Counted from the first letter of the stretch, positions 22,837 to 37,475 are shown. The stretch: DNA of 64,000 nucleotides from a virus (IMGVR_UViG_3300044609_000595:46320-110319); one strand, 5' to 3'. Numbers and translations are program-made. Notes: generated from the sequence alone by a model not told the origin.

Positions 22837-22854
22837 TTATTTTAATAATTGTTT

Positions 22855-23496
22855 ATGACATATCAAATATATGACTTGTTTCCAACACCATTGTTTACCC
22901 AACAAAATTTTCTTTCTGAAGAACATCTTAAACAAGTACAAAATCTCATAATTAATTCTGAATTTTTTGATCATTCTGATGATAACTATGGAGTTAATCC
23001 AACTGCATCTAAAAATATTTTAAAATCACTTCCTGAAGTTAAACAGGAAATTATGGAAACATTTAAAGAATATGCTAGAAATATTCTTCGAATAGATTTT
23101 AGCATAGATTTTGCGATGGGATCTTGTTGGGGTACTTTGACAAAACCAGGACAAAAATCTAAACCTCATATACATTCAAATTATTATTACAGTGGTTGTT
23201 ATTATATTTCTGATGAACCATCAGCCATAGAATTTCATTTGGGACCCTCGGTTTATAATCATCATGAACGTTTTATGTTTAAGTATCTTGAACATAATGC
23301 ATACAATAATAACAAATTAATTTATTATCCAGTTAAAAATGAAATCATATTTTTTCCAGCTTATTTGAAACATCAAATAACTAAAAATACATCAGATAAA
23401 AATAGATACTCAGTAGCGTTTAATATTCATCCATCTGGAGTTTATGGACGCCACGATAGTCAGTTACACATTCAAGTTATTGATGATTTAGATTAA
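22855..23496 (+). CDS. 2OG-Fe(II) oxygenase (TIGR02466-like)
   Basis: LFPTPL, HIHSN..YSGCYY, IIFFPAYLKHQI, RYSVAFN. Confidence 0.85.
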   Translation: MTYQIYDLFPTPLFTQQNFLSEEHLKQVQNLIINSEFFDHSDDNYGVNPTASKNILKSLPEVKQEIMETFKEYARNILRIDFSIDFAMGSCWGTLTKPGQKSKPHIHSNYYYSGCYYISDEPSAIEFHLGPSVYNHHERFMFKYLEHNAYNNNKLIYYPVKNEIIFFPAYLKHQITKNTSDKNRYSVAFNIHPSGVYGRHDSQLHIQVIDDLD

Positions 23497-23513: not shown

Positions 23514-23798
23514 ATGAACAGGTTGTGTAACATGAAATACATTCTTTCCCAATCTTATTGCTTCTATATGGGAGAAGTTGTTAGAATGTATTTTATCCAA
23601 GGTATGCCATATACCTTCGACGAACTTCCTGCTCTTATTCAAGACCACCCATCAGTTCAAACTGAAGCATTGAGTAATCGTGATTTTGATGACGAAGATT
23701 TGTATACTTGGTCCAATTATTTGATGATGGAAGAAGCCCACCCTCTAATGTTTGAATTAGAATTTGAAAATCCTGAGTTATTGCCTAAAGATGATTAA
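23514..23798 (+). CDS. Conserved cyanophage hypothetical protein (start may be ATG 23532)
   Basis: VRMYFIQGMPYTFDELP...YLMMEEAHPL.FE; preceded by a late-like TTAAATA; overlaps the cpeT start. Confidence 0.7.
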   Translation: MNRLCNMKYILSQSYCFYMGEVVRMYFIQGMPYTFDELPALIQDHPSVQTEALSNRDFDDEDLYTWSNYLMMEEAHPLMFELEFENPELLPKDD

Positions 23799-24312
23799 CG
23801 AATTTTTTAGATTAATTGAAGGACGTTTTGAAAATAAAACTCAAGCAATGACATATCCTTCGAGATATGCTATGATTAGAGTTACCCATGTCAATCTTGG
23901 TGGTGGTTTAATTTATGGAGAACAAGCTTACAATTATCAACTAAATAAACCGTACCGTCAATTTGTTCTTCGGCCTGTAGAAGAAAACGGTCAAATTCAT
24001 ATCTATAATTATGAATTGATTGATAAAGAAAACTACACTGGCTTCAAAAGACTTGACGAAATAGACCAGGATGTGCTAAGATTAAGGAGTGGTTGCGATG
24101 TCTTCATGACACCAAAAAACAATTCTTTCGTGGGGGGTATCCAAGGATGTGATTGTATGGTAGACTGGATGGGTCGTCAAACCTACCTCCAAAACGAAAT
24201 TGAGATAACACCATCTCATTATTATGTTATGGATCGTGGATTCTGTGCTGAACATAAACATCAGCTCTGGGGTTCTAAATATGGTAGGTTTGAATTTGTT
24301 AGAATGTCATGA
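23791..24312 (+). CDS. cpeT: CpcT/CpeT-family (T-type) phycobiliprotein lyase
   Basis: G.F.N..QA..YP..YA.I...H, YGEQAY.Y....PYRQ, GCD, F.G...GC.C, DRGF....QLWGS..G.FEF. Confidence 0.9.
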   Translation: MINEFFRLIEGRFENKTQAMTYPSRYAMIRVTHVNLGGGLIYGEQAYNYQLNKPYRQFVLRPVEENGQIHIYNYELIDKENYTGFKRLDEIDQDVLRLRSGCDVFMTPKNNSFVGGIQGCDCMVDWMGRQTYLQNEIEITPSHYYVMDRGFCAEHKHQLWGSKYGRFEFVRMS

Positions 24313-24710
24313 AAAATCCTTGGAAAGCTTTAATAGCTAAAGCAAAAACAGCAGCCAGACCTGGACAAGAGAAAAAAAATGGTATCAAACGAACTGAACC
24401 ATTAGATGTTACTATTGATGAACTTTATTTGAGAAATCAATTTGCTGAACAAAATGGTAAATGTTATTGGACTGAATTTCCCATAGACCCCTTTGGTGTG
24501 TATGAAAAAAGTAATCCACTAAGTCCAAGTTTAGAAAGGCTTGATGAATCATTGGGATATATTCCTGGAAACGTAGTCATTGCTTTAAGGTTATTTAATC
24601 TTGGTAGGCAAAGATGTCCAGAAAAAAAATTTAGAAATCAAGTAGAAAAATTAAAAAAACATTTTCAAGGAAAGCAAGTGACTTCTAATTTACATAATTT
24701 TTTGTGTTAA
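24309..24710 (+). CDS. HNH-like (beta-beta-alpha-Me) endonuclease, possibly homing
   Basis: EQNGKCYWT...SPSLERLDESLGYIPGNVV....FNLGR resembles the QxGxCxxT..SLDRID..GY..GNV...N family. Confidence 0.6.
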   Translation: MKNPWKALIAKAKTAARPGQEKKNGIKRTEPLDVTIDELYLRNQFAEQNGKCYWTEFPIDPFGVYEKSNPLSPSLERLDESLGYIPGNVVIALRLFNLGRQRCPEKKFRNQVEKLKKHFQGKQVTSNLHNFLC

Positions 24711-24720: not shown

Positions 24721-24792
24721 GCCCTTGTAGCTCAGTGGTAGAGCAACGGTTTTGTAAACCGTTGGTCGTCTGTTCGAATCAGATCGGGGGCT
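24721..24792 (+). tRNA. trnT: tRNA-Thr(TGT)
   Basis: GCCCTTG/CGGGGGC acceptor, GCTC-AGTGGTA-GAGC, ACGGT-TTTGTAA-ACCGT, GTCTG-TTCGAAT-CAGAT. Confidence 0.92.
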
Positions 24793-24832
24793 TTGGTAGT
24801 CGTTAGGCACATAGCTTAGAAAGACGCCAAAC

Positions 24833-24923
24833 GTAGGTGCCAAAACCGCTCCTCAGTCCTAGTATTCTGTGTCTGAGTGAATGTAAAGAGTGGGGACATA
24901 GGTAAAGTCCTCGACGCCTACCA
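24833..24923 (+). ncRNA. Putative structured ncRNA with pseudoknot
   Basis: Closing stem GTAGGTG/CGCCTAC, inner stems CCGCTC/GAGTGG, CTCAG/CTGAG, TATTC/GAATG, GGAC/GTCC; GC-rich, no credible ORF, between tRNAs. Confidence 0.55.
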
Positions 24924-24926
24924 CAA

Positions 24927-24998
24927 CTTCTGGTAGTCTATTGGTAAGGACGGGTGGACAACACACATGGAAACTAGGTTCGATTCCTAGACAGAGGA
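24927..24998 (+). ncRNA. tRNA-like element with aberrant anticodon arm
   Basis: 72 nt; CTTCTG/CAGAGG acceptor, D arm GTCT-ATTGGTAA-GGAC, perfect T arm CTAGG-TTCGATT-CCTAG; anticodon arm only GTG/CAC around GACAACA. Confidence 0.6.
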
Positions 24999-25001
24999 AA
25001 T

Positions 25002-25112
25002 AAGGTAAGGAAAGTAAAAGGAGCATGGGAACCGTATGGAGATACCGCACCTGCCTTGTTAACACCCCTCAAGCCTATCTCGGGACGCCGAATGATGCTC
25101 AAACAGAGGGGT
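25002..25112 (+). ncRNA. Putative two-domain structured RNA
   Basis: AAGGTAAGG/CCTGCCTT and ACCCCTC/GAGGGGT closed domains; cross-complementary GAGCAT/ATGCTC and GAGATA/TATCTC. Confidence 0.45.
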
Positions 25113-25116
25113 CACT

Positions 25117-25196
25117 GCCCAAGTGGTGAAATTGGTATACACGCATGACTTAGGATCATGTGCTTCGGCGTGGAGGTTCGAGTCCTCTCTTGGGCA
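25117..25196 (+). tRNA. trnL: tRNA-Leu(TAG)
   Basis: GCCCAAG/CTTGGGC acceptor, CATGA-CTTAGGA-TCATG, variable arm GC-TTCG-GC, GGAGG-TTCGAGT-CCTCT. Confidence 0.92.
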
Positions 25197-25214
25197 CTTC
25201 GGATTCTGTAATCC

Positions 25215-25283
25215 GAAATTGAAAAACTAAATCCATGAAACGGGGAAAAAATTCTCCGCCAAAAAATCGTCAAAAAAGTCGAG
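25215..25283. repeat. Phased A-tract element, copy 2
   Basis: Ungapped match to 22217-22285; preceded by the hairpin TTCGGATT-CTGT-AATCCGAA. Confidence 0.75.
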
Positions 25284-25292
25284 GGTAAAAAA

Positions 25293-25436
25293 ATGAGCTT
25301 ACTTTCTAAAAAAGATCACGAAATAGTCATCGAGGCACTAGAAACCCTAATTCAATCAAAAGAGGAATCTGACGATAAATTTGAATACTATAATTTACTC
25401 AATTGGGTAAAACTTAAATCAAAAGATAAATTTTGA
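25293..25436 (+). CDS. Small hypothetical protein (47 aa)
   Basis: MSLLSKKDHEIVIEALE...YYNLLNWVKLK; GAGG upstream. Confidence 0.55.
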   Translation: MSLLSKKDHEIVIEALETLIQSKEESDDKFEYYNLLNWVKLKSKDKF

Positions 25437-25443
25437 TAATTAT

Positions 25444-25515
25444 TGGAGTGTAGCTCAGTGGTAGAGCGGTCGGCTGTTAACCGATTGGTCGTAGGTTCGA
25501 ATCCCACCACTCCAG
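25444..25515 (+). tRNA. trnN: tRNA-Asn(GTT)
   Basis: TGGAGTG/CACTCCA acceptor, G discriminator, GTCGG-CTGTTAA-CCGAT, GTAGG-TTCGAAT-CCCAC. Confidence 0.92.
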
Positions 25516-25556
25516 TTGGCGATACTGTCAAACCAGACCCCTTCCGTGTGACTTTG

Positions 25557-25585: not shown

Positions 25586-25593
25586 TATAAATA
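25586..25593 (+). promoter_or_regulatory. T4-type late promoter for the giant structural gene
   Basis: Perfect TATAAATA 40 nt upstream of ATG 25634. Confidence 0.85.
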
Positions 25594-25633: not shown

Positions 25634-28600
25634 ATGGCTCTTACAAGACTTGATAATCTTTACTCAAGTAAAACTGGCAGATATTTATATGTTTCACCAG
25701 ATGATTTTAATGCTACTGATGAATTAGACAATCGAGGAAATTCTCCTCTACGTCCATTTAAAACAATCCAGAGAGCCTTTATCGAAGTAGCTCGTTATTC
25801 ATACCTCCCAGGTAGAAATAACGATAGATTTGACCAGTTCAGCATCATGTTGATGCCTGGTAATCACTATATCGACAACCGCCCAGGTGTAGTTGGTGTT
25901 ACTAACACAGAACCAAGATATCTTGACGGTGCTAATTTAATCGAAGCAAACCGCCAAGAAATTATTGACAGAGCATTTGCTGAAATTGCTGTTGAATATG
26001 ACGAATCTCTTTGGGGAACTGATTGGGTAGTTCCTGGGGATCCCATCAACAGCGATTTAAACAGAGGATTCGATTCATATAGATTAATCCAAAAAAATCG
26101 TTTAGACATTATTGATGAAGCCTTCAACACAATGTTGGCTTTTAATCCAGGATTTGAAGTTCCTAATGGTGATGCAAAATGTAAGAGAGATATTGGATAT
26201 TTTGTTGATGCCGTATCTTTAGACATCCTTTTGGGTGGCAGTAACAAGTATACTCGCAAGTTTATTCAAAATTATTTTAATTCCACTGGCACTGCTTGGC
26301 TTTCCAACACGTTACAAGGTGAGCAAACGCAATCAATTCAAGCATTTAATGCTGCCAGAGATTTGATGAATGAAGCTGTAACCAATCAGCTAGATTACAA
26401 AGATTTAACTCTTACTGCAGATCCCCTAGTTGGTTCTAATGTAAATATAAATTCTTGTGCAAACATCAGATCTGCTATTACTTCTCTCACTACATTAGTT
26501 ACTGATAGAATTACTGCAAATTCTCTAAATGGTCTTCCTGCAGAAACCCCAGGCATCTTAATCGGTCCAGGTCAATCAATTTGCCAACGTGATATTGGCT
26601 ATATTGTTGATGCTGTTGTTGCTGACCTTAAAACTGGTGGAAATAGCAATTCAGTTCAAGCTGCTAGATCATATTTTGATAGAAATGGTGATCCAATTGC
26701 CAATGGTTTGATTGGAGAAGAATCTCAATCAATTATTGCATTCGATGCAGCTAAAGTTATGATGAAAAAGGCTGTAACCAACCAGCTGTATTCTAAAGAT
26801 TTAACTTTGCTAGAAGGTCCTTCTATTGCAAACGCTTCCACAGAGATTCAACCAATTCTTCCTTCTGGCAATGAATTAAGCTGTGTTGATGTTCAAAATA
26901 GCATCGAAACTCTAATTGCTATTATCACTAGTGTAATTGCTGATGGTAATTTAACCAGTCTAGCTGATATTCAAATTACTGGTGATATTCCTGTATTTAA
27001 TTACAATCAAGCTTTAGAAGAGTGGAATGACAACAGCATTCTAGATCTTTCTAACCCAGATAACGTTCTCTACAAATTTAACGCTGCCACTGGCGGTGCT
27101 ATCGTGCCCAGAGGCTGCTCTCTAATCGGCTACGACCTGCGTAGAACTATTGTACGACCTCTTTATGTACCTGATCCTGCAGACGGCACACAGGCCCGTA
27201 CATCGATCTTTAACCTAACTGGTGGTTGCTACATTTGGCAGTTTACAATTAAGGATGGTGATCTTTCTGCTAATTCTCCTTTGTTTGATGAAACAAATGG
27301 TGTAGGTAAAGTATATTTCCAAAAAGGAAATACAGTAAATCTTGCGATACCTGAGTATTCGCACCATAAGATTACTATCATGACTTATGCTGATAGTGAT
27401 GATTTAACAGATTATTACACTAAAATTGGCAGGGCGTTTGCTAAATTCCAGCCATCTATTGATAATGCTGGAGAATTTGATGCTCTAGTACAAGAAAATA
27501 GAATTGTAGGACCTTTATCAGATACTAGAAGAATTGACAGCATTCAAGTGTTTGATTCTTCTCCAGCAGGAACCTTAACTCTTCGTGTAACCACTAAGAT
27601 TGACCATGGTTACTTTGTAGACCAATATGTTGCTATTTTAAATACTGGATTAGATGAAGCTATCAACGGTACAGTAAAAGTTACTGCAATTGACAATAGC
27701 AATCCTAGAGTATTTGAATACGAAATTAATGCAACTACTGCTGCTCTTGGATTAGTTAGCGGTCAAATTTATACTGCTGCTAGCGGTCTTAGTACCAATG
27801 CAGTTTCTCAAGCAGAAATTGACTCAGTAGAATCTGCTTCTCCATATGTATTCAACTGCTCAATTCGCTCCACCTGGGGTATTTGTGGCATGTGGGCGGA
27901 TGGATCTAAAGCAACTGGATTCAAGTCGATGGTTGTTGCCCAGTATACTGGTGTTTCACTACAGAGAGATGACAGAGCATTTATTCGTTATGATAGATTT
28001 ACCAATACTTGGAATCAAGCATCACTGACTGATGCGTTTGCTACTGTAGCTTATCACACCAAGGGCGATGCTTACTGGAAGGATGACTGGAGAAACTTCC
28101 ACATTCGTGCTTCTGACGATTCCTTCATTCAGTGTGTTTCGGTCTTTGCTGTAGGATTCTTTGATCACTTCTTAATGGAATCTGGTGGTGACATGTCCAT
28201 CACCAACTCCAACTCCAACTTCGGTAATACTTCACTTCACGCTGTAGGATTTAAAGGATTCTCGTTCAATCAGGATAAAGGTGGTTATATCACTGATATT
28301 ATCCCACCAAGAACTATTAATAGTTCACCAAGCAACGAAGAAAAAATACAGTATTATACGCTTGATATTCAAGCATCTAATGCACAAAACAATCATACCA
28401 GACTTTATATTGGTTCAGATGATGCTACCGATCCAGCAGATCGCCCAGCAGCAACAGTAAGTGGTTACAGAATTGGTGCCAGAAGTAATGAAAAACTTTA
28501 TGTAAAATTAGATGATGGAACATATAATGTTACCCTTGAACCAAATGGTTTTGTTTCTTATAAAGCATCGCTAGAAACTCTAAACCCAGCTGGTATTCAA

Positions 28601-31600
28601 ATTGATAACGTAGCTCAAGACGCTGCTAATAGAATTGAAGATAACAAAACATTAATTCAAAACGAAGCTTACAATTATATCATTGCTAAGTATCCATATC
28701 TACTAACCAGACAAAGCATCACAATTGCTAAATGTGAAAGAGACATCGGCTATTTTGTTGATGCTGTAGTACAAGATCTTAGACTTGGTGGTAATGTAAA
28801 CACCATTCAAGCTGCCGAAGGTTATTACGTTGGTGGTTCTTTAGCCTACATTAATAGTGAATTAGACGAAACTATCGAAGCTCTTGATTATGTCAAGAAC
28901 ATGTGTATCGCAGCAATGCGTAACTTTGATGTTCTTATTAGAAATTGTGAGACAGAAGCTGGTTCTGCGATTGTAAATGTTGGTGATACAACAGGTCTTC
29001 TGGTTGGTATGTCAGTTGCTGAATACAATCCATCAGCATTTGTCAATAATAAACTGACTAGTGGGATTTCCCCAATCACTTCTAATATTCCAACAAATAC
29101 TTACATTAAGAGAATTCTTGATGATCAAAGAATTGAATTAGGAGAATCTTCTTCCAAATTAACCGCTGGCAATACAATTGATGCTCAGCAATCATCATCA
29201 ACTGCATACCTCTATTTTGATTATCAATTCGGTGCATGGTCTAGCCTACAACCAACCAAAGATGATAGCTTAATTCAAGATACCAATTATCCAGAATGTG
29301 CTGATATTGCAACTACGATTTCACAATATTTTAGTGACATATTTGTTGTAATAAATCAAGGATTAACTCCTCTTGGTGGCAGAGAAATTGATGCACATAA
29401 CTTAATTTTAGCAAACAAAGAATTGATTGCTGAAGTTGCTGTTGACAGAATGTTAACAAATTATCCTGGTTTTGTTATTCCAAACGGAAATCAAAACTGT
29501 GTGGATGATATTATTGATGTTATGGAAGCAATTGCTTTTAACGTCAAATATGGTGGTAATAATAAAGTATATGAAGCTGGCGAAATTTATATCAGTGGAC
29601 AGCATGTTGAAGGAGAGGAAGATCAAGCAGTTTATGCATTCTTGCAGGCTAAAGACATTGCCATTCAAGTAATGAGAAATGAACCAGTAACTATTACTGG
29701 TTCAACTAGAACTCAATTTATTGATTCTACTATTGTAGTAGATCCACAATCACCAACTTGTGCAAATATTGCTTCTGCAATTACGAACTTAACTTCTATT
29801 ATTACACAATCTATTGGCACATCAACAGTTTCTGGTAGCTTAGTTGGAATTACTAAATCAATTCCAACTATCACATCAGTAAATAAAATTGAACCAATTA
29901 TTGATTTTAATGGTCTTTCTAAGAGAGCAACATTATTCACAATTAACACTGGGGAAGCAACTTCCAACCCACACCAATTTGAAACTGGAACTCCAGTTAA
30001 ACTTATTCCTAAGGCAAAAGAAGGAACTAATCCAGATAAGAGAGTTATTCGTCTACCAAAAGGATTTAGCACCAACACCAAGTATTATGTAATTGCTCCT
30101 GGTAGATTTACTCAGCCAGAAGATTACTCTGGCACCACATATTTTGATGGCTCGGATCAGACCAAATTGATGCTGGCTGCTACAAAAGAGAATGCTGCTG
30201 CTGGTATCTTTATTTACTCACCAGAAACAGATTCTGTAGATCCTGATGTAGAAATTGAAGTTCAAAGATACATTCTTGACAATACATATGATCTACACAA
30301 ATACAGATGTAATGTTGCTGGTGCTGGAGAAATTGAAACTGACGTTGCACATATCTTTGATCTTCCTAGCAATTCAGTAACTCCTCAGCTAGTATTCTTC
30401 CGTGTTGCAAATGATATTCTTGGTTCCGATCTTCCAGAAATCGCTGGTGCAGGAACTATCAATACACAAACATATTATTATGCTAGATTTATCTCACCAA
30501 AGAAATTTAGTATTCACACAACATTTGCTGATGCAATTGCTGGAGTAAATGCGGTTTCGTTTGTTCCTGGTAGTGGGCAGAACTTCTATGTATTTGCTAA
30601 CAAGCGTACCAGCCCACTAAGATTTGAAGCTGCTCCTAGAGATGAAGATGGACTATTACTGAATACCAGTGGTCTTTGGTACTTACAAGTTAAAGATGAA
30701 ACATCAAGCAATCCAAATACAGAAAGCATTCTGTATCGTTTCAAGGATATTGCTGCTTACGGTCCTGGTTCTGGCAAAATAAGAACACTTGATACTTGGT
30801 TTACTAGATTACAAGATACCAGAGGTAAAGAAGATCGTGTTTATAGATTACGTTATGTAATTCCTAAGTATCTTGAAACTGTTCGTGATCCTCTCAACGG
30901 TTTTGTTATCAAAGTTCGTACAGACGATAAGAGACGTTTAGTTCCACAAAAATTTGTACTTAAGCCAATTGGCGGTGCTCCATCTGTAGCTAGATTTGAC
31001 AACCCAGAACAGATTGGCGAAAGAATTGGCTATACCAAAACTGAACTTCTCGAAGATTATGGTATTGCTAATCCTACTTACGATCCATACTTAGCACCTA
31101 AAGTAATTGGTAGCGAAAGAACTCAGAGTAAGATTGCCTTTACAATTCAGTCTGCTAGAAAAATTGAAGATGAAAGTACAGAATATCTAGAAATCACCGC
31201 ATTTGATCATGCTATCACGAATGAAGGACTGAAAAATGAAATTTTCAGTGTTGTTGAAATTAATTTCCCTCAGGGTGGAACATTCTCGGTTAATAATGTT
31301 GGCGCTGGATTATCAAATCTAGTAACCTGGAATGGCTTCTCTAGTGGAAGTGGTTATATCCAAGGATATTTCGAAGAAAATAATAATTATTATCTAGTAA
31401 TCAAAAATATCACTGGTCAGATTAAATATAGCAGCATTGTTTCTACTAGATTTACTCAGGGTGATGTATTTGCTGATCTAATGGCTAAACCCAATAGCAT
31501 GGGTGATCCGAATGGCAAGGATAAGTCTGATCGCAGAGATTATCTGTACAGAATTGAAGGAGCCAATGTTTATACTTTAGTTCCAGGAGATATTATTACT

Positions 31601-34600
31601 GATGATGCTAATAATCAGTATAGAATTGAAAATGTTCGTGACGCTGGAAATCTTGAAGATAGTTTCTACATCTTCGACATCGACACAATTCAAGAGAGAA
31701 TTGCTGGTCAACAAGATGGTATTTACTATCTAACTTGCCTTCGTGGTAACATTTCTCCATTCCCAACTGGAGCTGGTGTTGGTACAAACTTCAGAAACTT
31801 TAAGTTCTCGCAGCCAATTTCACAACTATATCCACAGAATTATAAGAATGATCCTACGTGGTTCAAGCAAGTTAATTCTGTATACAATGATCCCCCTGCA
31901 TCTATTGCTGCAGCAGACAACTATATTCATGGTTTAGTTACTATCAACGATGCTAAAAATAGCGAAACTAAAGAATTGGTTCAGGATTTAATTCTGCAGC
32001 CAGCATTAACTAATTTCACTTTTGTTAAGGCAGAATCTTTAAGTTCCGCAACTTTAAATCCAGTTGGTGGTTCTAATATCATCGAAGCTCAGGAAGGTAA
32101 TGCTACTTCTGGTTCGGAAGATAGATACATTCCTATTGCTGGTGATTCTGATTTCCCAACCGAAGGAAAACTTTATGTAGAACTACGTAGACCTTCTATT
32201 GCACGTTCGGGCAACCATACATTTGAATACCTAGGTTTCGGTCCTGGTAACTACTCAACTGGCTTCCCACTTCGCCAGGAAGTTGTTCTTGCCGATGTTC
32301 AAGACTTCTATGCTCAGTCTAAGAGAGAAGACGGTGGTATCGTATTCTATACTGGTCTAAACTCCAACGGCGATCTTTACATTGGCAACAGAAAAGTCAA
32401 CGCTATTACTGGCGAAGAAACTTTCCTTGAAAGAGCAGTTCTAGAAGAATCTGCTGATGACGGTGGAGATGATTTGGGTGGTCTAGTTACAACCTTCGAC
32501 ACTCCTGTAACATTTAATGATAGAATTACTGTTGAAGGTAATGCTAATTTTAACAATCCTGTAGAGATTAGTGTTGCTGCAAACGAAGGAACTCCTCTTA
32601 GAATCTTCAGTGTAGTTAATGCTGATCTTGGCGATGATATTACATTAGGAAGAGCACAATTCCCTCAATCTAATGATGGTGACATTACTCTAGGTAAGAA
32701 TAGAATTAATGCTGCAGTATATGGAATTACTCCAAGACAAGTTCTTGGTTTAGATGGTCAAGCATATTCTATTAGAACTCACTTTGTAAATGGTCTTGGA
32801 CCATCGAATACAACTCCAGATCAAAATGCAACATTCAGTTCTCTGCAGGCAGTATCCTATAGTTCTACTCAAAATCCAAAGCCAGGTGATATTTTACTAA
32901 AAGGCAGTGAAGTAGGACGTTCAGGTTCACTTGGTTGGATATATGCCAACTATTATGCTGAAATTGCTGATGCCAGCATTCAAACAATTGTTAGTGATGG
33001 CATTCGCATGACAATTGAATGGGCTCCTGGCATAACAAATGCTGATGTTAACGTCATTGCAGGTGCTCAGCTAAGAATTACAAACTTCGGCACGAATCCA
33101 AATCTTAACGGCATTTGGACTGTTCTTTCTAATGGATTTAGTTCCAGTGGTACTTCATGCCAAATTCAAATTATTATAACTCCAGCAGTTGGTGTTCTTT
33201 ATACTTGGTCTACCGTTCCTGGTGCCAAGATGGAAGTTGCCCGCTCCAATTGGAAGGAAACTGGACTACTTGGTGCAGAAGCACTCAGAACTGAGACAGA
33301 AACCTGGGGCGATTATAAGTTAGGTATCAACACTCTTTCTAGAGCTTCTGATCTTGCTTACTTGAATGGATTTGTTCAAACTCAAACACAACCAAGAGCT
33401 AATCTTGATGTTGTTGGTGATGCATTTATTAGCGGTACAAATACTGCAATTACTGTAACAAATACAGGAAATCAAGTTAAGACTACAACTAAACTAGATA
33501 ATGCTTTCTTAGTTGGTGGAAATAGTGCTTCTCCAAACCAAGCTGCAACACTAAGAGTTGCAACTATTGATATCCCATCTGGTAGTAGAGCAACAACTAC
33601 TTATAGAGACGGTGGAAGATTTGGTATTAATACAACAATTAATACTAATGCATCAACTGATCTAGATAGAAACTTAGTTGTTGTTGGTGATGGTAGAATT
33701 ACAGGCAATCTGTTAATTCAAGATGATATTAGTGTAAACGGTGGAGATATTAACACCACTAACAATGTATTCAATTTTGTTAACAATAATGCTACTATAT
33801 TGAATATTGCTGGTAGCGGTGAAATCTTTAGCATTGGTAATAATGCTGCTGGCTCACAAAATGTTAATATTGGCAATAATGCTTCATCTCAAGTAATTGA
33901 AATTGGTGGCAATGCAACAATTACCAGACTTGGTATTCACAAAAATTCTCTTGACGCTAGCGTTGATATTGCCTCTGTAAATGATAATGCTGCTAACAAG
34001 GCAAACATCGTTATTGGTGGTGCCTGGGGCAATCTGAACAGCCAAACAACAATTGGTACATTCCAAACCAAGGTTGCTGGTCAACTTGAAATTGGTACTA
34101 AGTATGCTCCAGGAACAAGCACTGCTAGATTGTTCACTCAAGCAAGAACAGTAAATCTATTTGATGGAGACCAAACAACTACAGTTAACTTTGGTCCAAA
34201 CGCTACCAAGATGTCAATTGGTTCTGTTGGTGGTAATACTTACATCAGAAACACTCTCAATGTTGATGCTAGCACAATTCTTAATTCTGAATTGAGACTA
34301 TCTGGTGGTCTCAAGTCTGGCATCATTCAAATTCAAAGAGGAAGATTCTCTACAACTCCAGCTGCTCATGTTGTTGGTAGCCTAGAGAATCCAAATATTG
34401 ATTTCTATAGATACGAAACATTAGGTAGAAAAATTGATACTGCTGGTGAAACTTTATGGGGTGGTCCAGCATTCTTGATTGCTGGTGGTCAAATTGCAGG
34501 AATTGATACTATTGGTGCCGTAAGTCCATCCAGATTACCAGGAACATATACTTTTATTGCTCCAACGGGTGGAACTGGCACTGGCGCTACTTTCAACATT

Positions 34601-36226
34601 ACAATTACAATTGTAGGCGAAATTAGTATTGAATTAGTAAGTGCTGGTACTGGATACAGCGATAATGATGTTTTAACTGTAACAGATAATTTACTCGGTG
34701 GTGGTGGAGCGCCTGCTCTAACATTCCAAGTAAACGGAGTAAATGCTGCTGGTTCTAATTTCTACTTACCAATCACTGTACCAGCTACAACCGATTTTGC
34801 AATTGGTGATCTACTGTTAATTGACAGAGGAAATGCTATTTCTCCAGATGCTGTTGGTGATGGTAGTGGTGGTCAAATCACTGGATTGAGAAATCAAGCC
34901 TACAGTGAAATTGTTCGTGTGGTTGGTTTAACAAACGTTAGCAATCCTTCTGATATAAATGGCTACCGAATTGAAGTTGTTCGTGCTCAAGAAGGAACTC
35001 AAGCAAGAACAGATCACCCAGATGCTTGTGTAATTGCTAAGCTTAATAAGCAAGCAAATGCTAGCTTTATTACTGGATCTGATCTTGATGGTAACGGTGT
35101 ATTAGAATTCCCACCAAATGGTATTACCGCAAATGGTAATAATGTAAACATTGGAGTTGCTGAATTTGGTGGTGTTATTACAACCAATGATTTCTTCCGC
35201 TTGAGTGATTCAGAAATTGTTAAAGTTGCCCAAGTTGTTAGCACCGAAATTCAATCATTAATTATTACTGATGGTGGTGTACCAGAATCCGAAGTATTTA
35301 AAGTTGAATCTACAACTGGTAATACTAAGCTACTAGGAAACCTATCTGTTGGTTTTGGATTCAATAAGTTAACGGTAGACGGAAGCACTGGCAATACTAA
35401 TATTGCTGGAACTCTTACCTCTAATGGCACTCTAACTCTTCGTGGTTCTACCGTAGTTAATAACCAATTCTTTACTATCACAAATGGTGGAGCTACTGGA
35501 GTTACTGAAAGAACTACATTCCAAATTGATAGTGCTAATGGCAATCTAACTCTAAATGGTGGTTCGATTAACATCTACGGTACAGATGGAACTACTCCAA
35601 GACTTACATTCAATAATTCTTCTGGTGATTTTACAACTTATGGTTCGTTCTCTGCTCTTGGCACAGGAACCAGCACATTTGGCGGAGGAATTCTTGTTCA
35701 AGGAGATGCCACTATCAATGGTGGAGATCTAACTGTAAATTCTGGAGGAGCTTTATCATTCAAGGTAAGCAATGATAGATCAGTTACTTTAGCTGGCATT
35801 CCTTACTTCTACAACCAAAATGGTGGTAGAAAGTGGATTTATACCGATGAAAGCGTAATTGATGCTACATCAAATATTAATATCTTTGTTAATGCTCTAA
35901 GCAATACCTTAATTAAGCTACCAAGTAATCCTAGAATGGGTGATATGATTAGAATTGTTGATGTTGGAGGAAACCTCAACAACATTAATAGCCTTGTCGT
36001 TAGAGCACCTGATGGCATTCGTGTACAAGGAACGTTAACAAATACAGCAAGAACTCTTCTTACTGGAGTTGGCTCCTCAACTACCTTTATAAATTATAAT
36101 GGAGGCGAATTAGTTGTTCAAACTCCATTTGCTGGATTTGCCTTGGTTTACCTATCCCAAGCTAATCCCGATGGAACTGCTGGCGGTCCTTCATCTAAGG
36201 TAGGTTGGTATTTAACCGAAGTATAA
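25634..36226 (+). CDS. Giant virion structural / fibre-like protein (3530 aa) with phycobiliprotein-like repeats
   Basis: Late promoter; N-terminus MALTRLDNL..KTGRYLYV.P.DF.ATD...N.GNS..RPFKTIQRA typical of cyanomyovirus giant structural proteins; beta-rich C-terminal half ending GW.L.EV. Confidence 0.85.
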   Translation: MALTRLDNLYSSKTGRYLYVSPDDFNATDELDNRGNSPLRPFKTIQRAFIEVARYSYLPGRNNDRFDQFSIMLMPGNHYIDNRPGVVGVTNTEPRYLDGANLIEANRQEIIDRAFAEIAVEYDESLWGTDWVVPGDPINSDLNRGFDSYRLIQKNRLDIIDEAFNTMLAFNPGFEVPNGDAKCKRDIGYFVDAVSLDILLGGSNKYTRKFIQNYFNSTGTAWLSNTLQGEQTQSIQAFNAARDLMNEAVTNQLDYKDLTLTADPLVGSNVNINSCANIRSAITSLTTLVTDRITANSLNGLPAETPGILIGPGQSICQRDIGYIVDAVVADLKTGGNSNSVQAARSYFDRNGDPIANGLIGEESQSIIAFDAAKVMMKKAVTNQLYSKDLTLLEGPSIANASTEIQPILPSGNELSCVDVQNSIETLIAIITSVIADGNLTSLADIQITGDIPVFNYNQALEEWNDNSILDLSNPDNVLYKFNAATGGAIVPRGCSLIGYDLRRTIVRPLYVPDPADGTQARTSIFNLTGGCYIWQFTIKDGDLSANSPLFDETNGVGKVYFQKGNTVNLAIPEYSHHKITIMTYADSDDLTDYYTKIGRAFAKFQPSIDNAGEFDALVQENRIVGPLSDTRRIDSIQVFDSSPAGTLTLRVTTKIDHGYFVDQYVAILNTGLDEAINGTVKVTAIDNSNPRVFEYEINATTAALGLVSGQIYTAASGLSTNAVSQAEIDSVESASPYVFNCSIRSTWGICGMWADGSKATGFKSMVVAQYTGVSLQRDDRAFIRYDRFTNTWNQASLTDAFATVAYHTKGDAYWKDDWRNFHIRASDDSFIQCVSVFAVGFFDHFLMESGGDMSITNSNSNFGNTSLHAVGFKGFSFNQDKGGYITDIIPPRTINSSPSNEEKIQYYTLDIQASNAQNNHTRLYIGSDDATDPADRPAATVSGYRIGARSNEKLYVKLDDGTYNVTLEPNGFVSYKASLETLNPAGIQIDNVAQDAANRIEDNKTLIQNEAYNYIIAKYPYLLTRQSITIAKCERDIGYFVDAVVQDLRLGGNVNTIQAAEGYYVGGSLAYINSELDETIEALDYVKNMCIAAMRNFDVLIRNCETEAGSAIVNVGDTTGLLVGMSVAEYNPSAFVNNKLTSGISPITSNIPTNTYIKRILDDQRIELGESSSKLTAGNTIDAQQSSSTAYLYFDYQFGAWSSLQPTKDDSLIQDTNYPECADIATTISQYFSDIFVVINQGLTPLGGREIDAHNLILANKELIAEVAVDRMLTNYPGFVIPNGNQNCVDDIIDVMEAIAFNVKYGGNNKVYEAGEIYISGQHVEGEEDQAVYAFLQAKDIAIQVMRNEPVTITGSTRTQFIDSTIVVDPQSPTCANIASAITNLTSIITQSIGTSTVSGSLVGITKSIPTITSVNKIEPIIDFNGLSKRATLFTINTGEATSNPHQFETGTPVKLIPKAKEGTNPDKRVIRLPKGFSTNTKYYVIAPGRFTQPEDYSGTTYFDGSDQTKLMLAATKENAAAGIFIYSPETDSVDPDVEIEVQRYILDNTYDLHKYRCNVAGAGEIETDVAHIFDLPSNSVTPQLVFFRVANDILGSDLPEIAGAGTINTQTYYYARFISPKKFSIHTTFADAIAGVNAVSFVPGSGQNFYVFANKRTSPLRFEAAPRDEDGLLLNTSGLWYLQVKDETSSNPNTESILYRFKDIAAYGPGSGKIRTLDTWFTRLQDTRGKEDRVYRLRYVIPKYLETVRDPLNGFVIKVRTDDKRRLVPQKFVLKPIGGAPSVARFDNPEQIGERIGYTKTELLEDYGIANPTYDPYLAPKVIGSERTQSKIAFTIQSARKIEDESTEYLEITAFDHAITNEGLKNEIFSVVEINFPQGGTFSVNNVGAGLSNLVTWNGFSSGSGYIQGYFEENNNYYLVIKNITGQIKYSSIVSTRFTQGDVFADLMAKPNSMGDPNGKDKSDRRDYLYRIEGANVYTLVPGDIITDDANNQYRIENVRDAGNLEDSFYIFDIDTIQERIAGQQDGIYYLTCLRGNISPFPTGAGVGTNFRNFKFSQPISQLYPQNYKNDPTWFKQVNSVYNDPPASIAAADNYIHGLVTINDAKNSETKELVQDLILQPALTNFTFVKAESLSSATLNPVGGSNIIEAQEGNATSGSEDRYIPIAGDSDFPTEGKLYVELRRPSIARSGNHTFEYLGFGPGNYSTGFPLRQEVVLADVQDFYAQSKREDGGIVFYTGLNSNGDLYIGNRKVNAITGEETFLERAVLEESADDGGDDLGGLVTTFDTPVTFNDRITVEGNANFNNPVEISVAANEGTPLRIFSVVNADLGDDITLGRAQFPQSNDGDITLGKNRINAAVYGITPRQVLGLDGQAYSIRTHFVNGLGPSNTTPDQNATFSSLQAVSYSSTQNPKPGDILLKGSEVGRSGSLGWIYANYYAEIADASIQTIVSDGIRMTIEWAPGITNADVNVIAGAQLRITNFGTNPNLNGIWTVLSNGFSSSGTSCQIQIIITPAVGVLYTWSTVPGAKMEVARSNWKETGLLGAEALRTETETWGDYKLGINTLSRASDLAYLNGFVQTQTQPRANLDVVGDAFISGTNTAITVTNTGNQVKTTTKLDNAFLVGGNSASPNQAATLRVATIDIPSGSRATTTYRDGGRFGINTTINTNASTDLDRNLVVVGDGRITGNLLIQDDISVNGGDINTTNNVFNFVNNNATILNIAGSGEIFSIGNNAAGSQNVNIGNNASSQVIEIGGNATITRLGIHKNSLDASVDIASVNDNAANKANIVIGGAWGNLNSQTTIGTFQTKVAGQLEIGTKYAPGTSTARLFTQARTVNLFDGDQTTTVNFGPNATKMSIGSVGGNTYIRNTLNVDASTILNSELRLSGGLKSGIIQIQRGRFSTTPAAHVVGSLENPNIDFYRYETLGRKIDTAGETLWGGPAFLIAGGQIAGIDTIGAVSPSRLPGTYTFIAPTGGTGTGATFNITITIVGEISIELVSAGTGYSDNDVLTVTDNLLGGGGAPALTFQVNGVNAAGSNFYLPITVPATTDFAIGDLLLIDRGNAISPDAVGDGSGGQITGLRNQAYSEIVRVVGLTNVSNPSDINGYRIEVVRAQEGTQARTDHPDACVIAKLNKQANASFITGSDLDGNGVLEFPPNGITANGNNVNIGVAEFGGVITTNDFFRLSDSEIVKVAQVVSTEIQSLIITDGGVPESEVFKVESTTGNTKLLGNLSVGFGFNKLTVDGSTGNTNIAGTLTSNGTLTLRGSTVVNNQFFTITNGGATGVTERTTFQIDSANGNLTLNGGSINIYGTDGTTPRLTFNNSSGDFTTYGSFSALGTGTSTFGGGILVQGDATINGGDLTVNSGGALSFKVSNDRSVTLAGIPYFYNQNGGRKWIYTDESVIDATSNINIFVNALSNTLIKLPSNPRMGDMIRIVDVGGNLNNINSLVVRAPDGIRVQGTLTNTARTLLTGVGSSTTFINYNGGELVVQTPFAGFALVYLSQANPDGTAGGPSSKVGWYLTEV
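25925..29816 (+). repeat. Four helical protein repeats (A 25925-26940 with B 26072-26512 nested inside, C 28619-29360, D 29390-29816)
   Basis: Shared pattern D...I..N...I...A...C.(R/D)DI...(V/M)(D/E)A......GG...E......A...............N...C.(N/D)(I/V)...I. Confidence 0.8.
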
Positions 36227-36227: not shown

Positions 36228-37475
36228 ATGGCTTTTTATCAGCAAACAAGAACAGCTAAAGCTGCCGCTATTGGCACAATCATGCCCTGGACTGGGGGTG
36301 TATCAAACATCCCCAAAGGCTGGATTCTTTGTGATGGAACACCAATAACGGCAGCAAGTTATCCCCTTTTGGCTAGAGCAATTGGGGATACTTATAATAA
36401 TGGTCCATCATCATTTGCAGGTAGTTTTCCAAATTATGCTGGCAATATAGTTCTTCCTAATTTAACTAATAAAACCCTTATTGATATTGAAACTTCTTAT
36501 TTTGGGGCTGGAGGAACTGGAGAAACACAAGATTTAGATTCAAAAGCAGCCACTGCTGTCACACCTCTCATTGGAGCCAATACAGACAATGGAGTAAAAA
36601 CAATTTATAATGATATTACTACTGATGTAGTTTTTACTCTTAATGACAGATCAGGATATTCTGGAAGAGCTTCTGGCAATACAATTGGTGGTGGCGAAGG
36701 AGTAAGTAAAACTGTGTATATTAGCCCAAGAAAATTGGGAAGAGATCATATTAAACCACACAATCATCCTGGAAGATATGAATCTCTTAGTTATACTAAC
36801 CCACAACGACCTGGAGCAGGAGTAATTCCTTACTCTTCATTCACATATCAATTTTATTCTTACATTGATTATGATGATGGAGATATTTTATATGGTGGCT
36901 CTTCTGACACTGAAACTGGAGTTTCGATTACTTTTGAAGGTCCTAATGCTAGAGGTGATGTCAATGGGTTTGGAAATGGAAGCCCTGGAAGAGTTGTTGC
37001 TGGGATCAATGCAGAAAATCCTCCAATCAATTACACTCCATTTAATGTTAAATTAAGTCCACTGCAAACGTTCATGACCAACCCTGCAGTTGATCAATCT
37101 ACTCCTATACCATATGGTTTGCAAGGAGTTAATCTTAATTTACCTGCTGGATCCAGAAATTATTATCCAGATATTACAAATTCTATAACACAAGCTAATA
37201 CATTTGATACACTAACAACTCCAGCAGCGTATGATTTTAATCAAATTACTCAAAGTCCTGGAACATCTGATGTAATAGTGCCACACATTCATGATGAATT
37301 TGACGTAGAATTTGTCAGGGGAACTTTAAGACCAAATAGTACTATTACTGTTAATGTAGAGGCACCTAATGCTAATCTAAGTTTAGATAATCAATCTAAT
37401 CAAGCTGCTTTGCAAATTAACTTTAATACGTCGCAGCCAGGATTAACATGTATATACATCATTAGAGCATACTAA
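36228..37475 (+). CDS. Tail collar domain fibre protein
   Basis: IGTIMPWTG....IPKGWILCDG......YPLLA.AIG.TY, LPNL, C-terminal QP.L...YIIRAY. Confidence 0.8.
   Translation: MAFYQQTRTAKAAAIGTIMPWTGGVSNIPKGWILCDGTPITAASYPLLARAIGDTYNNGPSSFAGSFPNYAGNIVLPNLTNKTLIDIETSYFGAGGTGETQDLDSKAATAVTPLIGANTDNGVKTIYNDITTDVVFTLNDRSGYSGRASGNTIGGGEGVSKTVYISPRKLGRDHIKPHNHPGRYESLSYTNPQRPGAGVIPYSSFTYQFYSYIDYDDGDILYGGSSDTETGVSITFEGPNARGDVNGFGNGSPGRVVAGINAENPPINYTPFNVKLSPLQTFMTNPAVDQSTPIPYGLQGVNLNLPAGSRNYYPDITNSITQANTFDTLTTPAAYDFNQITQSPGTSDVIVPHIHDEFDVEFVRGTLRPNSTITVNVEAPNANLSLDNQSNQAALQINFNTSQPGLTCIYIIRAY

What the first reader, a model, noticed from the sequence alone, without database searches (positions are those of the whole stretch)
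25925..29816. Phycobiliprotein-like domains with both bilin-attachment cysteines built into a giant virion protein
Seen: the 3530-aa late structural protein has four helical repeats. Repeat C reads DAANRIEDNKTLIQNEAYNYIIAKYPYL...AKCERDIGYFVDAVVQDLRLGG...TIEALDYVK...PECADIATTISQYF. Established knowledge (phycocyanin sequences recalled from memory): the alpha subunit reads [26 protein letters not shown]...[21 protein letters not shown]...YVEALKYIK, and the beta subunit has DAVNRITSN and ends GDCSALASEIASYF around Cys155. The C-to-GG spacing is identical and the GG-to-EAL spacing differs by one residue. All four repeats keep a Cys84-like residue (C183, C317, C1034, C1289); three have the full C-x-R-D, whose Asp and Arg contact the bilin in phycobiliproteins. 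All four also keep a Cys155-like residue (C275, C417, C1222, C1376). The N-terminal X/Y dimerisation helices are missing. Inference: these are phycobiliprotein-derived globin cores displayed on the virion and possibly carrying bilins, giving a pigmented, photoprotected or light-sensing phage particle. Light-dependent adsorption is known for some cyanomyoviruses. I do not know of this having been described.
Basis: partly seen in the sequence, partly recalled or inferred. Interest (0 to 1): 0.92.

Follow-up and report, generated by a model that had tools for sequence, protein, structure and literature searches.

The report
Phycobiliprotein-like domains in cyanophage tail protein
A giant tail or baseplate protein of a virus of marine cyanobacteria contains four domains that are true relatives of its host's light-harvesting pigment proteins and keep the pigment-attachment residues, beside the virus's own pigment-lyase gene, so it can now be tested whether the virus particle carries pigment and senses light; pigment binding itself is not shown.

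Summary
The 3530-aa ORF (25634..36226, +) of this T4-like cyanomyovirus holds four repeats, at aa 98-294, 294-435, 991-1245 and 1246-1394. They are genuine phycobiliprotein (PBP) family domains:
- Pfam PF00502 scores 43 bits against a cut-off of 22.
- A reciprocal profile search of the PDB returns only PBPs.
- hhalign gives 95% probability.
- Template-free AlphaFold models superpose on PBP beta chains at Z 15-18, rmsd about 2.1 A over about 130 residues.

The first cysteine aligns with Cys82/84, and its Arg and Asp align with the bilin-contacting pair. The second cysteine falls at the position of beta-Cys153/155.

Across 1587 repeats from 184 relatives, the Cys, Arg and Asp are kept in 98%, 94% and 99%. 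In 72% of repeats this is the only cysteine, so an intra-repeat disulfide is not the general explanation.

The domain was found only in cyanophages. The T-type bilin lyase gene cpeT lies 1.3 kb upstream. In 15 isolate genomes, cpeT never occurs without these repeats.

Bilin attachment and light sensing remain untested inferences. I found no paper describing this. This scan has already noted the same feature on other cyanophage DNA, in at least 31 genomes.

The parts
25634..36226 (+). Giant ORF, 3530 aa: tail/baseplate fibre-type virion protein that carries the four PBP-like repeats
   Evidence: ORF list and translation. phrog_4527 'short tail fiber', 5178 bits, plus other tail-fibre PHROGs. 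Homologues are annotated as tail protein, virion structural protein, putative fiber or gp7-like in S-PM2, S-CAM1/3, Syn9 and P-HM1.
25925..26515 (+). Repeat A (aa 98-294). The PBP-fold core is aa ~143-294. It is preceded by an extra helix pair (aa 98-135) that probably belongs to the next domain.
   Evidence: PF00502 27.3 bits on its own. AlphaFold model pLDDT 80.9, pTM 0.77. Foldseek top ~50 hits are all PBPs. VIA-align Z 16-18, rmsd 2.0-2.3 A over 130-137 residues, model 45..197 against PBP beta 34..172/177.
26180..26191 (+). Cys183-Lys-Arg185-Asp186 of repeat A, equivalent to PBP Cys82/84, Arg and Asp (bilin thioether, propionate contact and pyrrole-N contact)
   Evidence: hhalign of A2 against ten host PBPs gives prob 95.2%, E 2.5e-8, and aligns these residues with the invariant C82, R84 and D85. 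The Cys and Asp are invariant and the Arg nearly so in A2.
26456..26458 (+). Cys275, the second cysteine of repeat A, at the N-cap of the last helix
   Evidence: It lies 19 residues before the model residue that aligns to the PBP beta C-terminus, which places it at beta-Cys153 (PC) or Cys158 (PE).
26513..26938 (+). Repeat B (aa 294-435), with Cys317-x-Arg-Asp and Cys417. It lacks its own first helix.
   Evidence: 40% identical to repeat A. Family HMM score 127.6 bits over states 63-193 only. Cysteine positions.
27002..28624 (+). Non-PBP domain between the two repeat pairs (aa 457-997)
   Evidence: phrog_529 tail fiber protein, 992 bits. No Pfam match. Not studied further.
28604..29368 (+). Repeat C (aa 991-1245), with Cys1034-x-Arg-Asp and Cys1222. 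A beta-strand insertion of about 100 aa (aa ~1099-1196, nt 28928-29221) sits between helices G and H.
   Evidence: phmmer against the PDB matches phycoerythrin and phycocyanin alpha chains, E 7e-4, over PBP residues 38-137. PF00502 19.6 bits. AlphaFold model of C+D has pLDDT 77.7. VIA-align model 7..259 against 4h0m_B 31..172, Z 14.8, rmsd 2.3 A over 132 residues.
29369..29815 (+). Repeat D (aa 1246-1394), with Cys1289-Val-Asp-Asp (the Arg is replaced) and Cys1376
   Evidence: VIA-align model 265..413 against PBP beta 33..172/177, Z 15-16.5, rmsd 2.0-2.3 A over 129-134 residues. PF00502 15.1 bits, below the cut-off. Family HMM 113 bits.
23764..24312 (+). cpeT: T-type phycobiliprotein lyase homologue, 1.3 kb upstream of the giant gene
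   Evidence: PF06206 134.9 bits against a cut-off of 21. phrog_488 CpeT-like. The same neighbourhood is seen in S-PM2 and in 11 of 20 related IMG/VR loci.
25586..25593 (+). T4-type late-promoter-like octamer, 41 nt upstream of the giant gene's ATG
   Evidence: Exact TATAAATA match. There are only 3 in the window, which is not more than chance, so position is the only argument.
24721..25516 (+). Four tRNA genes (Thr, Leu, Leu, Asn) between cpeT and the giant gene
   Evidence: ARAGORN.
18215..21139 (+). gp5-like baseplate hub gene upstream (virion-module context)
   Evidence: PF06714 Gp5_OB and phrog_1922.
36228..38361 (+). Two tail-collar-domain fibre genes directly downstream (gp12-like short tail fibre and tail collar protein)
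   Evidence: PF07484 Collar, phrog_4591 and phrog_4714. Same order in S-PM2.

Best explanation
The four repeats are true phycobiliprotein-family domains. A host antenna-protein fold was captured long ago by T4-like cyanophages and multiplied inside giant tail/baseplate fibre proteins (shown). They have lost the X/Y helices and the residues that PBPs use to form alpha-beta pairs. They have kept, more strictly than anything else in the domain, the Cys-x-Arg-Asp triad that in PBPs holds the bilin (shown). Most likely the domains are therefore still chromophorylated while the virion is assembled in the bilin-rich host cytoplasm (inferred). The Cys84-type site would be filled autocatalytically or by host S/U- or E/F-type lyases. 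The second cysteine present in all four repeats here sits at the beta-Cys153/155 position, the site served by T-type lyases, and would be filled by the phage's own CpeT, encoded 1.3 kb upstream. The released particle would then carry bilins on its adsorption apparatus. The most likely use is as a light-responsive element in adsorption or baseplate triggering (speculative). My odds are: PBP homology above 95%, bilin actually bound about 50%, a role in light-dependent adsorption about 25%.
For: Homology: PF00502 scores 43 bits. The phage-repeat profile finds only PBP-type chains in the PDB, best E 1.5e-5. Repeat C alone matches PE/PC alpha chains at E 7e-4. hhalign gives 95.2%, E 2.5e-8.
Fold: Foldseek top hits are all PBPs. 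VIA-align gives Z 15-18 and rmsd about 2.1 A over about 130 residues for repeats A, C and D.
Site conservation: in 1587 repeats from 184 proteins the Cys is kept in 98%, the Arg in 94% and the Asp in 99%, the highest values in the domain apart from one Asp and one Tyr; 72% of repeats have this cysteine only. The PBP-invariant positions R91 and Y95 are occupied by Asp and Leu in the phage alignment.
Second cysteine: in A, C and D it lies exactly 19 residues before the residue aligned to the PBP beta C-terminus, which is the position of Cys153 in the host CpcB.
Distribution: 409 of 409 matching phage records are cyanophages, even at E<=1. Of 201 cyanobacterial genomes searched, the only match is a binned phage contig.
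Lyase link: cpeT lies next to the gene here, in S-PM2 and in 11 of 20 related loci. In 15 isolate genomes, 10 have repeats and cpeT, 2 have repeats and no cpeT detected, 3 have neither, and none has cpeT alone. My hand calculation gives a one-sided Fisher p of about 0.02, without phylogenetic correction.
Phenotype: S-PM2, P-HM1 and P-HM2 have repeats and are reported to adsorb only in light. P-SSM2 has none and adsorbs in the dark (PMC6628666). The authors of that paper name light-sensitive tail fibres as one untested possibility.
From memory, not held here: Gasper et al. 2017 (J Biol Chem 292:3089) found that phage CpeT binds phycoerythrobilin tightly but does not transfer it to the host beta subunit, which leaves its substrate open.
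Against: No chromophore was observed; everything about bilin binding is inferred from sequence. I could not inspect model coordinates, so pocket shape and Cys-Cys distances are unmeasured. The second cysteine is present in only 39% of the repeats that reach that position, and its sequence-level alignment to beta-Cys153 is not significant on its own. Repeat D has lost the Arg. Some relatives carry up to 35 repeats, which looks more like a building block than a sensor. cpeT is adjacent to the gene only in the S-PM2-like lineage; in P-HM2 and Syn9 it lies 35-58 kb away, and T4-like cyanophage gene order is conserved anyway. S-ShM2, and by my threshold also P-SSM7, have repeats without a detected cpeT. 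The phenotype correlation rests on four phages, two of which belong to one species. As far as I know, coloured or fluorescent cyanophage preparations have never been reported.
Confidence: 0.5

Rival explanations
1. Purely structural exaptation. The PBP fold is used as a compact, stable helical bead to build and lengthen fibres or side arms, and no bilin is bound. The conserved cysteine would form disulfides between neighbouring repeats or chains, or be kept for folding reasons. The Arg and Asp would be kept as internal salt-bridge or helix-capping residues.
For: Copy number varies from 2 to 35 per protein, as expected of a modular spacer. The domains occur in different carrier proteins, annotated as fibre-like or gp7-like. 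Repeats are nested or carry inserted beta domains. The alpha-beta assembly features of PBPs are lost. Virions are extracellular, where disulfides are common.
Against: A spacer role does not explain why exactly the three bilin-holding residues are the best conserved over 1587 repeats while most of the rest drifts, nor why 72% of repeats have one unpaired cysteine. It also leaves the cyanophage-only distribution and the cpeT co-occurrence unexplained.
Confidence: 0.3
2. An intracellular role rather than a virion-borne one. During assembly the PBP-like domains would bind or soak up free bilins, or dock onto host lyases, linkers or phycobilisomes. That could serve as a bilin sink, a decoy, or an anchor that places assembly near the thylakoids. 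Any pigment on the free particle would be incidental.
For: The domains keep the bilin-site residues. Cyanophages carry several genes that manipulate phycobilisomes and bilins, such as cpeT, pebS, pcyA, ho1 and nblA.
Against: The carrier is a late structural protein in the baseplate/fibre module. A cytoplasmic task would not need fusion into a 3530-aa fibre protein. There is no evidence of contact with host proteins.
Confidence: 0.1
3. The pocket has been re-used for another ligand or for host-surface recognition, for example a different tetrapyrrole, a metal, or a receptor epitope. The cysteine would serve that new chemistry.
For: The phage clade is separated from all host PBP classes by a very long branch. 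It has its own strictly conserved residues, an Asp 14 positions and a Tyr 30 positions after the cysteine at 98-99%, which have no conserved PBP counterpart.
Against: The residues retained are those specific to bilin binding in PBPs. No other ligand is suggested by any search.
Confidence: 0.08
4. The similarity is chance or compositional, and the repeats are unrelated helical bundles.
For: Identity to PBPs is only 12-22% in the structural alignments. The tool notes warn that helical bundles can reach Z about 13-14 by arrangement alone.
Against: Independent significant matches come from Pfam, from a reverse profile search and from hhalign. Every top structural hit is a PBP, at Z 15-18 over the whole core. 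The functional triad is aligned exactly.
Confidence: 0.02

Closest known systems
Phycobiliprotein beta subunits (CpcB, CpeB, cryptophyte beta chains; Pfam PF00502)
   Same: Same fold from helix A/B to helix H (Z 15-18, rmsd about 2.1 A). Cys-x-Arg-Asp at the Cys82/84 site. A second cysteine at the Cys153/155/158 position in these four repeats.
   Different: No X/Y helices. The PBP-invariant R91 and Y95 are replaced. The domains are present as 2-35 repeats inside giant phage structural proteins rather than as 17-20 kDa subunits. They form a monophyletic phage clade on a long branch. They were found only in cyanophages. Chromophore not demonstrated.
Phycocyanin and phycoerythrin alpha subunits (CpcA, CpeA)
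   Same: These are the best sequence matches for repeats A+B and for repeat C, and for the 1587-repeat profile (CpcA 25.3 bits). The match includes the helix-B motif, the loop before the cysteine and the F-helix motif.
   Different: Alpha subunits have no Cys155-type site, and the structural matches are better to beta chains. Whether the phage clade derives from the alpha or the beta lineage is unresolved.
ApcE (core-membrane linker) PBP-like domain (from my own knowledge)
   Same: It is a precedent for a PBP domain embedded in a large multidomain protein, one that attaches its bilin without a separate lyase.
   Different: ApcE is a cellular phycobilisome component with one PBP domain, and its cysteine is at a different position. 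No direct comparison was run here.
Giant structural/fibre proteins of T4-like cyanophages (S-PM2 YP_195253, Syn9 gp101 'putative fiber', P-HM1/P-HM2 gp7-like)
   Same: They belong to the same protein family and carry the same repeats: 10 in S-PM2, 3 in Syn9, 5 each in P-HM1 and P-HM2. Genomic context is the same in S-PM2.
   Different: They are annotated only as tail, fibre, structural or hypothetical proteins. Neither the records I saw nor the papers I could search mention the PBP relationship.
Cyanophage T-type lyase CpeT (Gasper et al. 2017, recalled from memory; paper not held)
   Same: The neighbouring gene is a clear CpeT/CpcT family member. T-type lyases serve the beta-Cys153/155 position (review PMC10452541).
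   Different: Its accepted but unproven role is to help the host's phycoerythrin. A virion protein as its substrate has not been proposed in anything I could find.

Membership tests
Phycobiliprotein family (Pfam PF00502 Phycobilisome protein) | Sequence match to the family profile above the curated threshold | tested here: met
   The whole protein scores 43 bits and repeat A alone 27.3 bits, against a cut-off of 22.2. Repeats C (19.6) and D (15.1) are below the cut-off and repeat B is not detected. B, C and D are tied to A by 29-40% identity and by the family HMM.
Phycobiliprotein family (Pfam PF00502 Phycobilisome protein) | Globin-like PBP core fold (helices A/B, E, F, G, H) | tested here: met
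   These are template-free AlphaFold models. For repeat A, Z is 16-18 and rmsd 2.0-2.3 A over 130-137 residues. For repeat D, Z is 15-16.5; for repeat C, Z is 14.8. All top Foldseek hits are PBPs. Repeat B was not modelled.
Phycobiliprotein family (Pfam PF00502 Phycobilisome protein) | Chromophore-site triad: Cys82/84 with Arg and Asp two and three residues later | tested here: met
   hhalign places phage C183, R185 and D186 on the invariant C82, R84 and D85 of ten host PBPs. Repeats A, B and C have the full triad. Repeat D has Asp in place of Arg. Family-wide the residues are kept in 98%, 94% and 99%.
Phycobiliprotein family (Pfam PF00502 Phycobilisome protein) | N-terminal X/Y helices and conserved alpha-beta interface residues (Asp13, Arg91/93, Tyr95/97; their role is recalled from the literature) | tested here: not met
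   The tight alignments begin at PBP residue 34-35. The positions aligned to the invariant R91 and Y95 hold Asp and Leu.
Phycobiliprotein family (Pfam PF00502 Phycobilisome protein) | Covalently bound bilin chromophore | not testable with these tools
   This needs spectroscopy, Zn-fluorescence or mass spectrometry of virions or recombinant protein.
Phycobiliprotein family (Pfam PF00502 Phycobilisome protein) | Assembly into (alpha-beta)3 discs of a phycobilisome | not testable with these tools
   No multimer modelling was available. Such assembly is not expected, given the loss of the interface features.
PBP beta-subunit class | Second bilin site at Cys153/155/158 in the G-H loop, served by T-type lyases | tested here: met
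   In repeats A, C and D the second cysteine lies exactly 19 residues before the model residue aligned to the beta-chain C-terminus, as Cys153 does in the host CpcB. Two caveats apply. This is derived from the end points of the alignment ranges and assumes an ungapped last helix. The sequence-only alignment of this stretch is not significant.
CpeT/CpcT T-type bilin lyase (Pfam PF06206), for the upstream gene | Profile match above the curated threshold | tested here: met
   134.9 bits against a cut-off of 21, covering profile positions 2-181 of 181. Activity and substrate were not tested.
T4 gp12 short tail fibre (the RefSeq label of homologues) | Homology to gp12 or a phage tail-collar domain | tested here: not met
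   The giant protein has no Pfam match other than PF00502. The Collar-domain, gp12-like gene is the next ORF, 36228..37475. The label comes from the PHROG/RefSeq naming of phrog_4527.

The most novel reading that the evidence does not exclude
The virion's tail/baseplate fibres carry covalently bound bilins, attached by the phage's own CpeT and by host lyases, and act as a virus-borne photoreceptor that gates adsorption or baseplate triggering by light. This would explain three open puzzles together: light-dependent adsorption of cyanomyoviruses, the missing substrate of phage CpeT, and part of the reason why phages carry bilin-synthesis genes. It would be the first photoreceptor built into a virus particle.
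Probability: 0.25. Interest if true: 0.97.

Novelty: new variant of a known kind. Interest (0 to 1): 0.86.

Why it matters
Phycobiliproteins are known as antenna subunits of cyanobacteria, red algae and cryptophytes. A large, phage-only branch of the family, built into virus particles, is unexpected: 1299 representative proteins match at E<=1e-3.

It turns two long-standing open questions into bench experiments with named residues and genes. The first is why some cyanomyoviruses adsorb only in the light, independently of photosynthesis; the authors of PMC6628666 name light-sensitive tail fibres as an untested possibility. The second is what the widespread phage cpeT gene is for; Sullivan et al. 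2010 call its role unresolved.

If bilins are bound, cyanophage particles would be pigmented, with consequences for diel infection dynamics, UV or light decay of virions, and possibly optical detection of cyanophages. If they are not bound, it is still a clear case of a host photosynthesis protein fold recruited as a virion building block.

Tried and rejected
- Intra-repeat disulfide between the two cysteines: rejected as a general explanation. 1075 of 1501 repeats have a single cysteine, and 367 of 606 repeats that cover both positions keep only the first. I could not measure distances in the models because coordinates are not exposed.
- Occurrence outside cyanophages: tblastn of repeats A+B at E<=1e-3 and of C+D at E<=1 found only cyanophage records. 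The Methylophilales and Pelagibacter phage hits obtained with the metagenomic relative P0066 match only its N-terminal residues 30-93, not the repeats.
- Stand-alone small homologues: only 34 proteins of 87-510 aa were found, mostly fragments on short contigs. True PBPs do not reach significance in a 5.8-billion-sequence search.
- A 38-aa query of the last helix of repeat C against the PDB found nothing.
- The search for related loci with alignment A2 on genome contigs failed because no stretch was conserved enough.
- tblastn with this phage's CpeT finds only 67 records and is too insensitive to list all phage cpeT genes. I therefore used the Pfam model on 15 whole genomes.
- Origin within the PBP tree: the phage repeats are monophyletic on a long branch. 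Their attachment point between alpha-rod PBPs and the rest is weakly supported and unrooted, so I drew no conclusion.
- No ho1, pebS or pcyA was found in the 110-kb, 57%-complete record. This is uninformative.
- The papers of Jia et al. 2010 and Gasper et al. 2017 are not held. What I say about them is from memory or from papers that cite them.

Full report
**What is there.** The window is part of a 110-kb IMG/VR record of a T4-like cyanomyovirus. Its nearest isolates are S-PM2, S-CAM1/3 and S-RSM4. ORF 25634..36226 (+) encodes 3530 aa. It belongs to the tail-fibre PHROGs and sits in a virion module. A gp5-like hub lies upstream and two tail-collar-domain fibre genes lie directly downstream. 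The order is the same as in S-PM2. A T4-type late-promoter octamer lies 41 nt before the ATG; this is weak evidence from position only.

A family HMM finds exactly four repeats: aa 98-294, 294-435, 991-1152 plus a distal last helix, and 1222-1394. These are the finding's coordinates.

**Homology to phycobiliproteins.**
- Pfam PF00502 matches the protein at 43 bits, E 5.9e-11, against a cut-off of 22.2. Repeat A alone passes at 27.3 bits. C and D score 19.6 and 15.1, and B is not detected.
- The four repeats are 29-40% identical to each other.
- In the reverse direction I built a profile from repeat A, 14 metagenomic homologues and repeats B-D (alignment A2). Searched against all PDB sequences, it returns 120 matches at E<=1. 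The 60 listed are all phycobiliprotein-type chains, best E 1.5e-5.
- Repeat C alone matches phycoerythrin and phycocyanin alpha chains at E 7e-4 over PBP residues 38-137.
- I extracted ten PBP genes (ApcA/B/D/F, CpcA/B, CpeA/B, MpeA/B) from a Synechococcus genome. hhalign of A2 against them gives 95.2% probability and E 2.5e-8. It places phage C183, R185 and D186 on the invariant C82, R84 and D85.
- The PBP-invariant R91 and Y95 align with Asp and Leu in the phage. From my knowledge of the literature, these two residues take part in alpha-beta pairing.

**Fold.**
- A template-free AlphaFold model of repeat A has pLDDT 80.9 and pTM 0.77. It finds only phycobiliproteins among its top ~50 Foldseek hits in the PDB, with prob 1.0 and TM 0.55-0.66.
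- VIA-align gives Z 16-18 with rmsd 2.0-2.3 A over 130-137 residues. Model 45..197 lies on beta-chain 34..172/177, which is the whole core without the X/Y helices.
- A model of repeats C+D has pLDDT 77.7. It gives Z 15-16.5 for D (265..413 on 33..172/177) and Z 14.8 for C (7..259 on 31..172).
- In all three modelled repeats the second cysteine lies exactly 19 residues before the residue aligned to the beta-chain C-terminus. This is where Cys153 sits in the host CpcB. The sequence-only alignment of that stretch is not significant, and I could see only range end points, not coordinates.

**Family-wide conservation.**
- The A2 profile finds 1299 representative proteins at E<=1e-3 among 1.84 billion, and 430 at E<=1e-30. 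Most are giant proteins with 2-35 repeats.
- I analysed 1587 repeat instances from the 184 proteins held. The cysteine is kept in 1469 of 1501, the Arg in 1417 of 1502 and the Asp in 1489 of 1503. Only one further Asp and one Tyr are as conserved.
- The second cysteine is present in 247 of the 628 instances that reach that position.
- 1075 of 1501 repeats contain a single cysteine.
- So the bilin-holding triad is the most conserved feature of the family, and the cysteine is usually unpaired within its repeat.

**Distribution.**
- tblastn of repeats A+B (E<=1e-3) and C+D (E<=1) against 50,697 phage records hits 346 and 409 records. Every one is a Synechococcus, Prochlorococcus or 'Cyano' phage, or a marine single-cell virus.
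- A divergent 16-repeat metagenomic relative also points to cyanophages. Its few hits to Methylophilales and Pelagibacter phages involve only its N-terminal 30-93 residues.
- In 201 cyanobacterial genomes, the only matches at E<=1e-8 lie on a 194-kb phage contig binned into one MAG.
- In a tree, 28 phage repeats form one clade (100/100) separated from all ten host PBPs by a long branch. This is an old capture, not a recent transfer of a modern PBP gene. Its alpha or beta origin is unresolved.

**Link to cpeT.**
- ORF 23764..24312 is a clear T-type lyase homologue (PF06206, 134.9 bits). It lies 1.3 kb upstream, separated from the giant gene by an endonuclease-like ORF and four tRNA genes.
- The same neighbourhood exists in S-PM2, in 11 of 20 related IMG/VR loci with cpeT down to 53% identity, and in the S-CAM, S-RIM32/44 and ACG-2014e/i/j group. 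It does not exist in P-HM2 or Syn9.
- I searched 15 isolate genomes with both models.

| Repeats | cpeT | Phages |
|---|---|---|
| present | present | S-PM2, P-HM1, P-HM2, Syn9, S-SM1, S-SSM5, Syn19, Syn33, P-SSM4, P-RSM4 |
| present | not detected | S-ShM2, P-SSM7 |
| absent | absent | P-SSM2, S-SM2, S-SSM7 |
| absent | present | none |

- By hand, the chance that all ten cpeT carriers fall among the twelve repeat carriers is 66/3003, or 0.022. This has no phylogenetic correction.
- Sullivan et al. 2010 list cpeT in 12 of 16 cyanophages and call its role unresolved.
- T-type lyases serve the beta-Cys153 position (review).

**Phenotype.** Liu et al. 2019 report that P-HM1 and P-HM2 do not adsorb in the dark and that P-SSM2 does. 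They cite S-PM2 as light-dependent and independent of photosynthesis, and suggest light-sensitive receptors and/or tail fibres. The three light-dependent phages have the repeats and P-SSM2 has none. This covers four phages and three lineages, so it is a lead and not a test.

**Mechanism and rivals.**
- My best reading is that the domains still bind bilin and that the assembled fibre carries it. Homology, fold, site conservation and distribution are shown. Chromophorylation, the lyase assignment and any light response are inferred.
- The main rival is a purely structural bead whose cysteine serves inter-repeat disulfides. This fits the variable copy number, but it does not explain the selective retention of the triad, the host restriction or the cpeT pattern.
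- A rough estimate from my own arithmetic shows why pigment could have been overlooked. About 100-200 bilins per particle at 1e12 particles per ml gives an absorbance near 0.03.

**Novelty.**
- Full-text searches for cyanophage with phycobilisome or phycobiliprotein, virion, tail fibre, PF00502 or globin found no description of these domains.
- Neither Sullivan et al. 2010, nor the Clokie et al. 2010 review, nor the Rockwell et al. 2023 study of PBP origins mentions them.
- Database records call the proteins tail, fibre or structural proteins.
- This scan's earlier notes describe the same feature in at least 31 other cyanophage genomes, with the same conclusion. These are unchecked AI notes and not independent evidence.

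**Limits.**
- Repeat B was not modelled.
- Two key papers were not held.

Noticed in passing
window 25925-26938 (aa 98-435): Repeats A and B look nested rather than tandem. Repeat A is preceded by an extra first-helix unit (aa 98-135) that has low pLDDT in the model. Repeat B starts at the loop before the Cys helix and lacks its own first helix (HMM states 63-193 only). The outer domain is probably aa 98-135 plus ~300-435, with the repeat A core inserted in its B-E loop. Earlier notes of this scan describe such 'Russian-doll' nesting in other cyanophages.
   Followed up: partly
window 28928-29221 (aa ~1099-1196): A beta-strand domain of about 100 residues is inserted between helices G and H of repeat C. 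It is modelled with pLDDT 85-95, and its fold was not identified.
   Followed up: no
window 22559-25516: Seven tRNA genes in two clusters, a 2OG-Fe(II) oxygenase (22849..23496), cpeT and an endonuclease-like ORF (24309..24710, phrog_3322) fill the gap between the gp5 module and the giant gene. This matches the 'near gp5 with tRNAs' hot-spot of Sullivan et al. 2010. The endonuclease may mark a mobile cassette.
   Followed up: no
L025 / G001 contig C1 (194 kb): A MAG labelled Synechococcus sp. CUG2217 contains a 193,981-bp contig that is a T4-like cyanophage genome. It holds cpeT and three giant ORFs with 13 PBP-like repeats. It is either a binning artefact or an infecting phage.
   Followed up: partly
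L026 (CAJXMP010000233.1): A cpeT-like gene (44% identity) lies on a 4.4-kb contig binned into an 'uncultured Lewinella' MAG. This is probably cyanophage DNA mis-binned into a Bacteroidota genome.
   Followed up: no
L041 (S-PM2 NC_006820, 165928-177267): The RefSeq record places 16 tRNA features inside the giant CDS and gives that CDS a tRNA-style locus tag. The coordinates look stale or wrong. The product name 'short tail fiber protein' for the giant ORF is also doubtful, because the gp12-like gene is the next one.
   Followed up: no
   Followed up: no
family HMM states 99 and 115 (in repeat A: the Asp 14 and the Tyr 30 residues after Cys183): Two residues are as conserved as the bilin triad (98-99% of about 1500 repeats) but have no conserved counterpart in PBPs. 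They are candidates for phage-specific pocket or packing residues.
   Followed up: no
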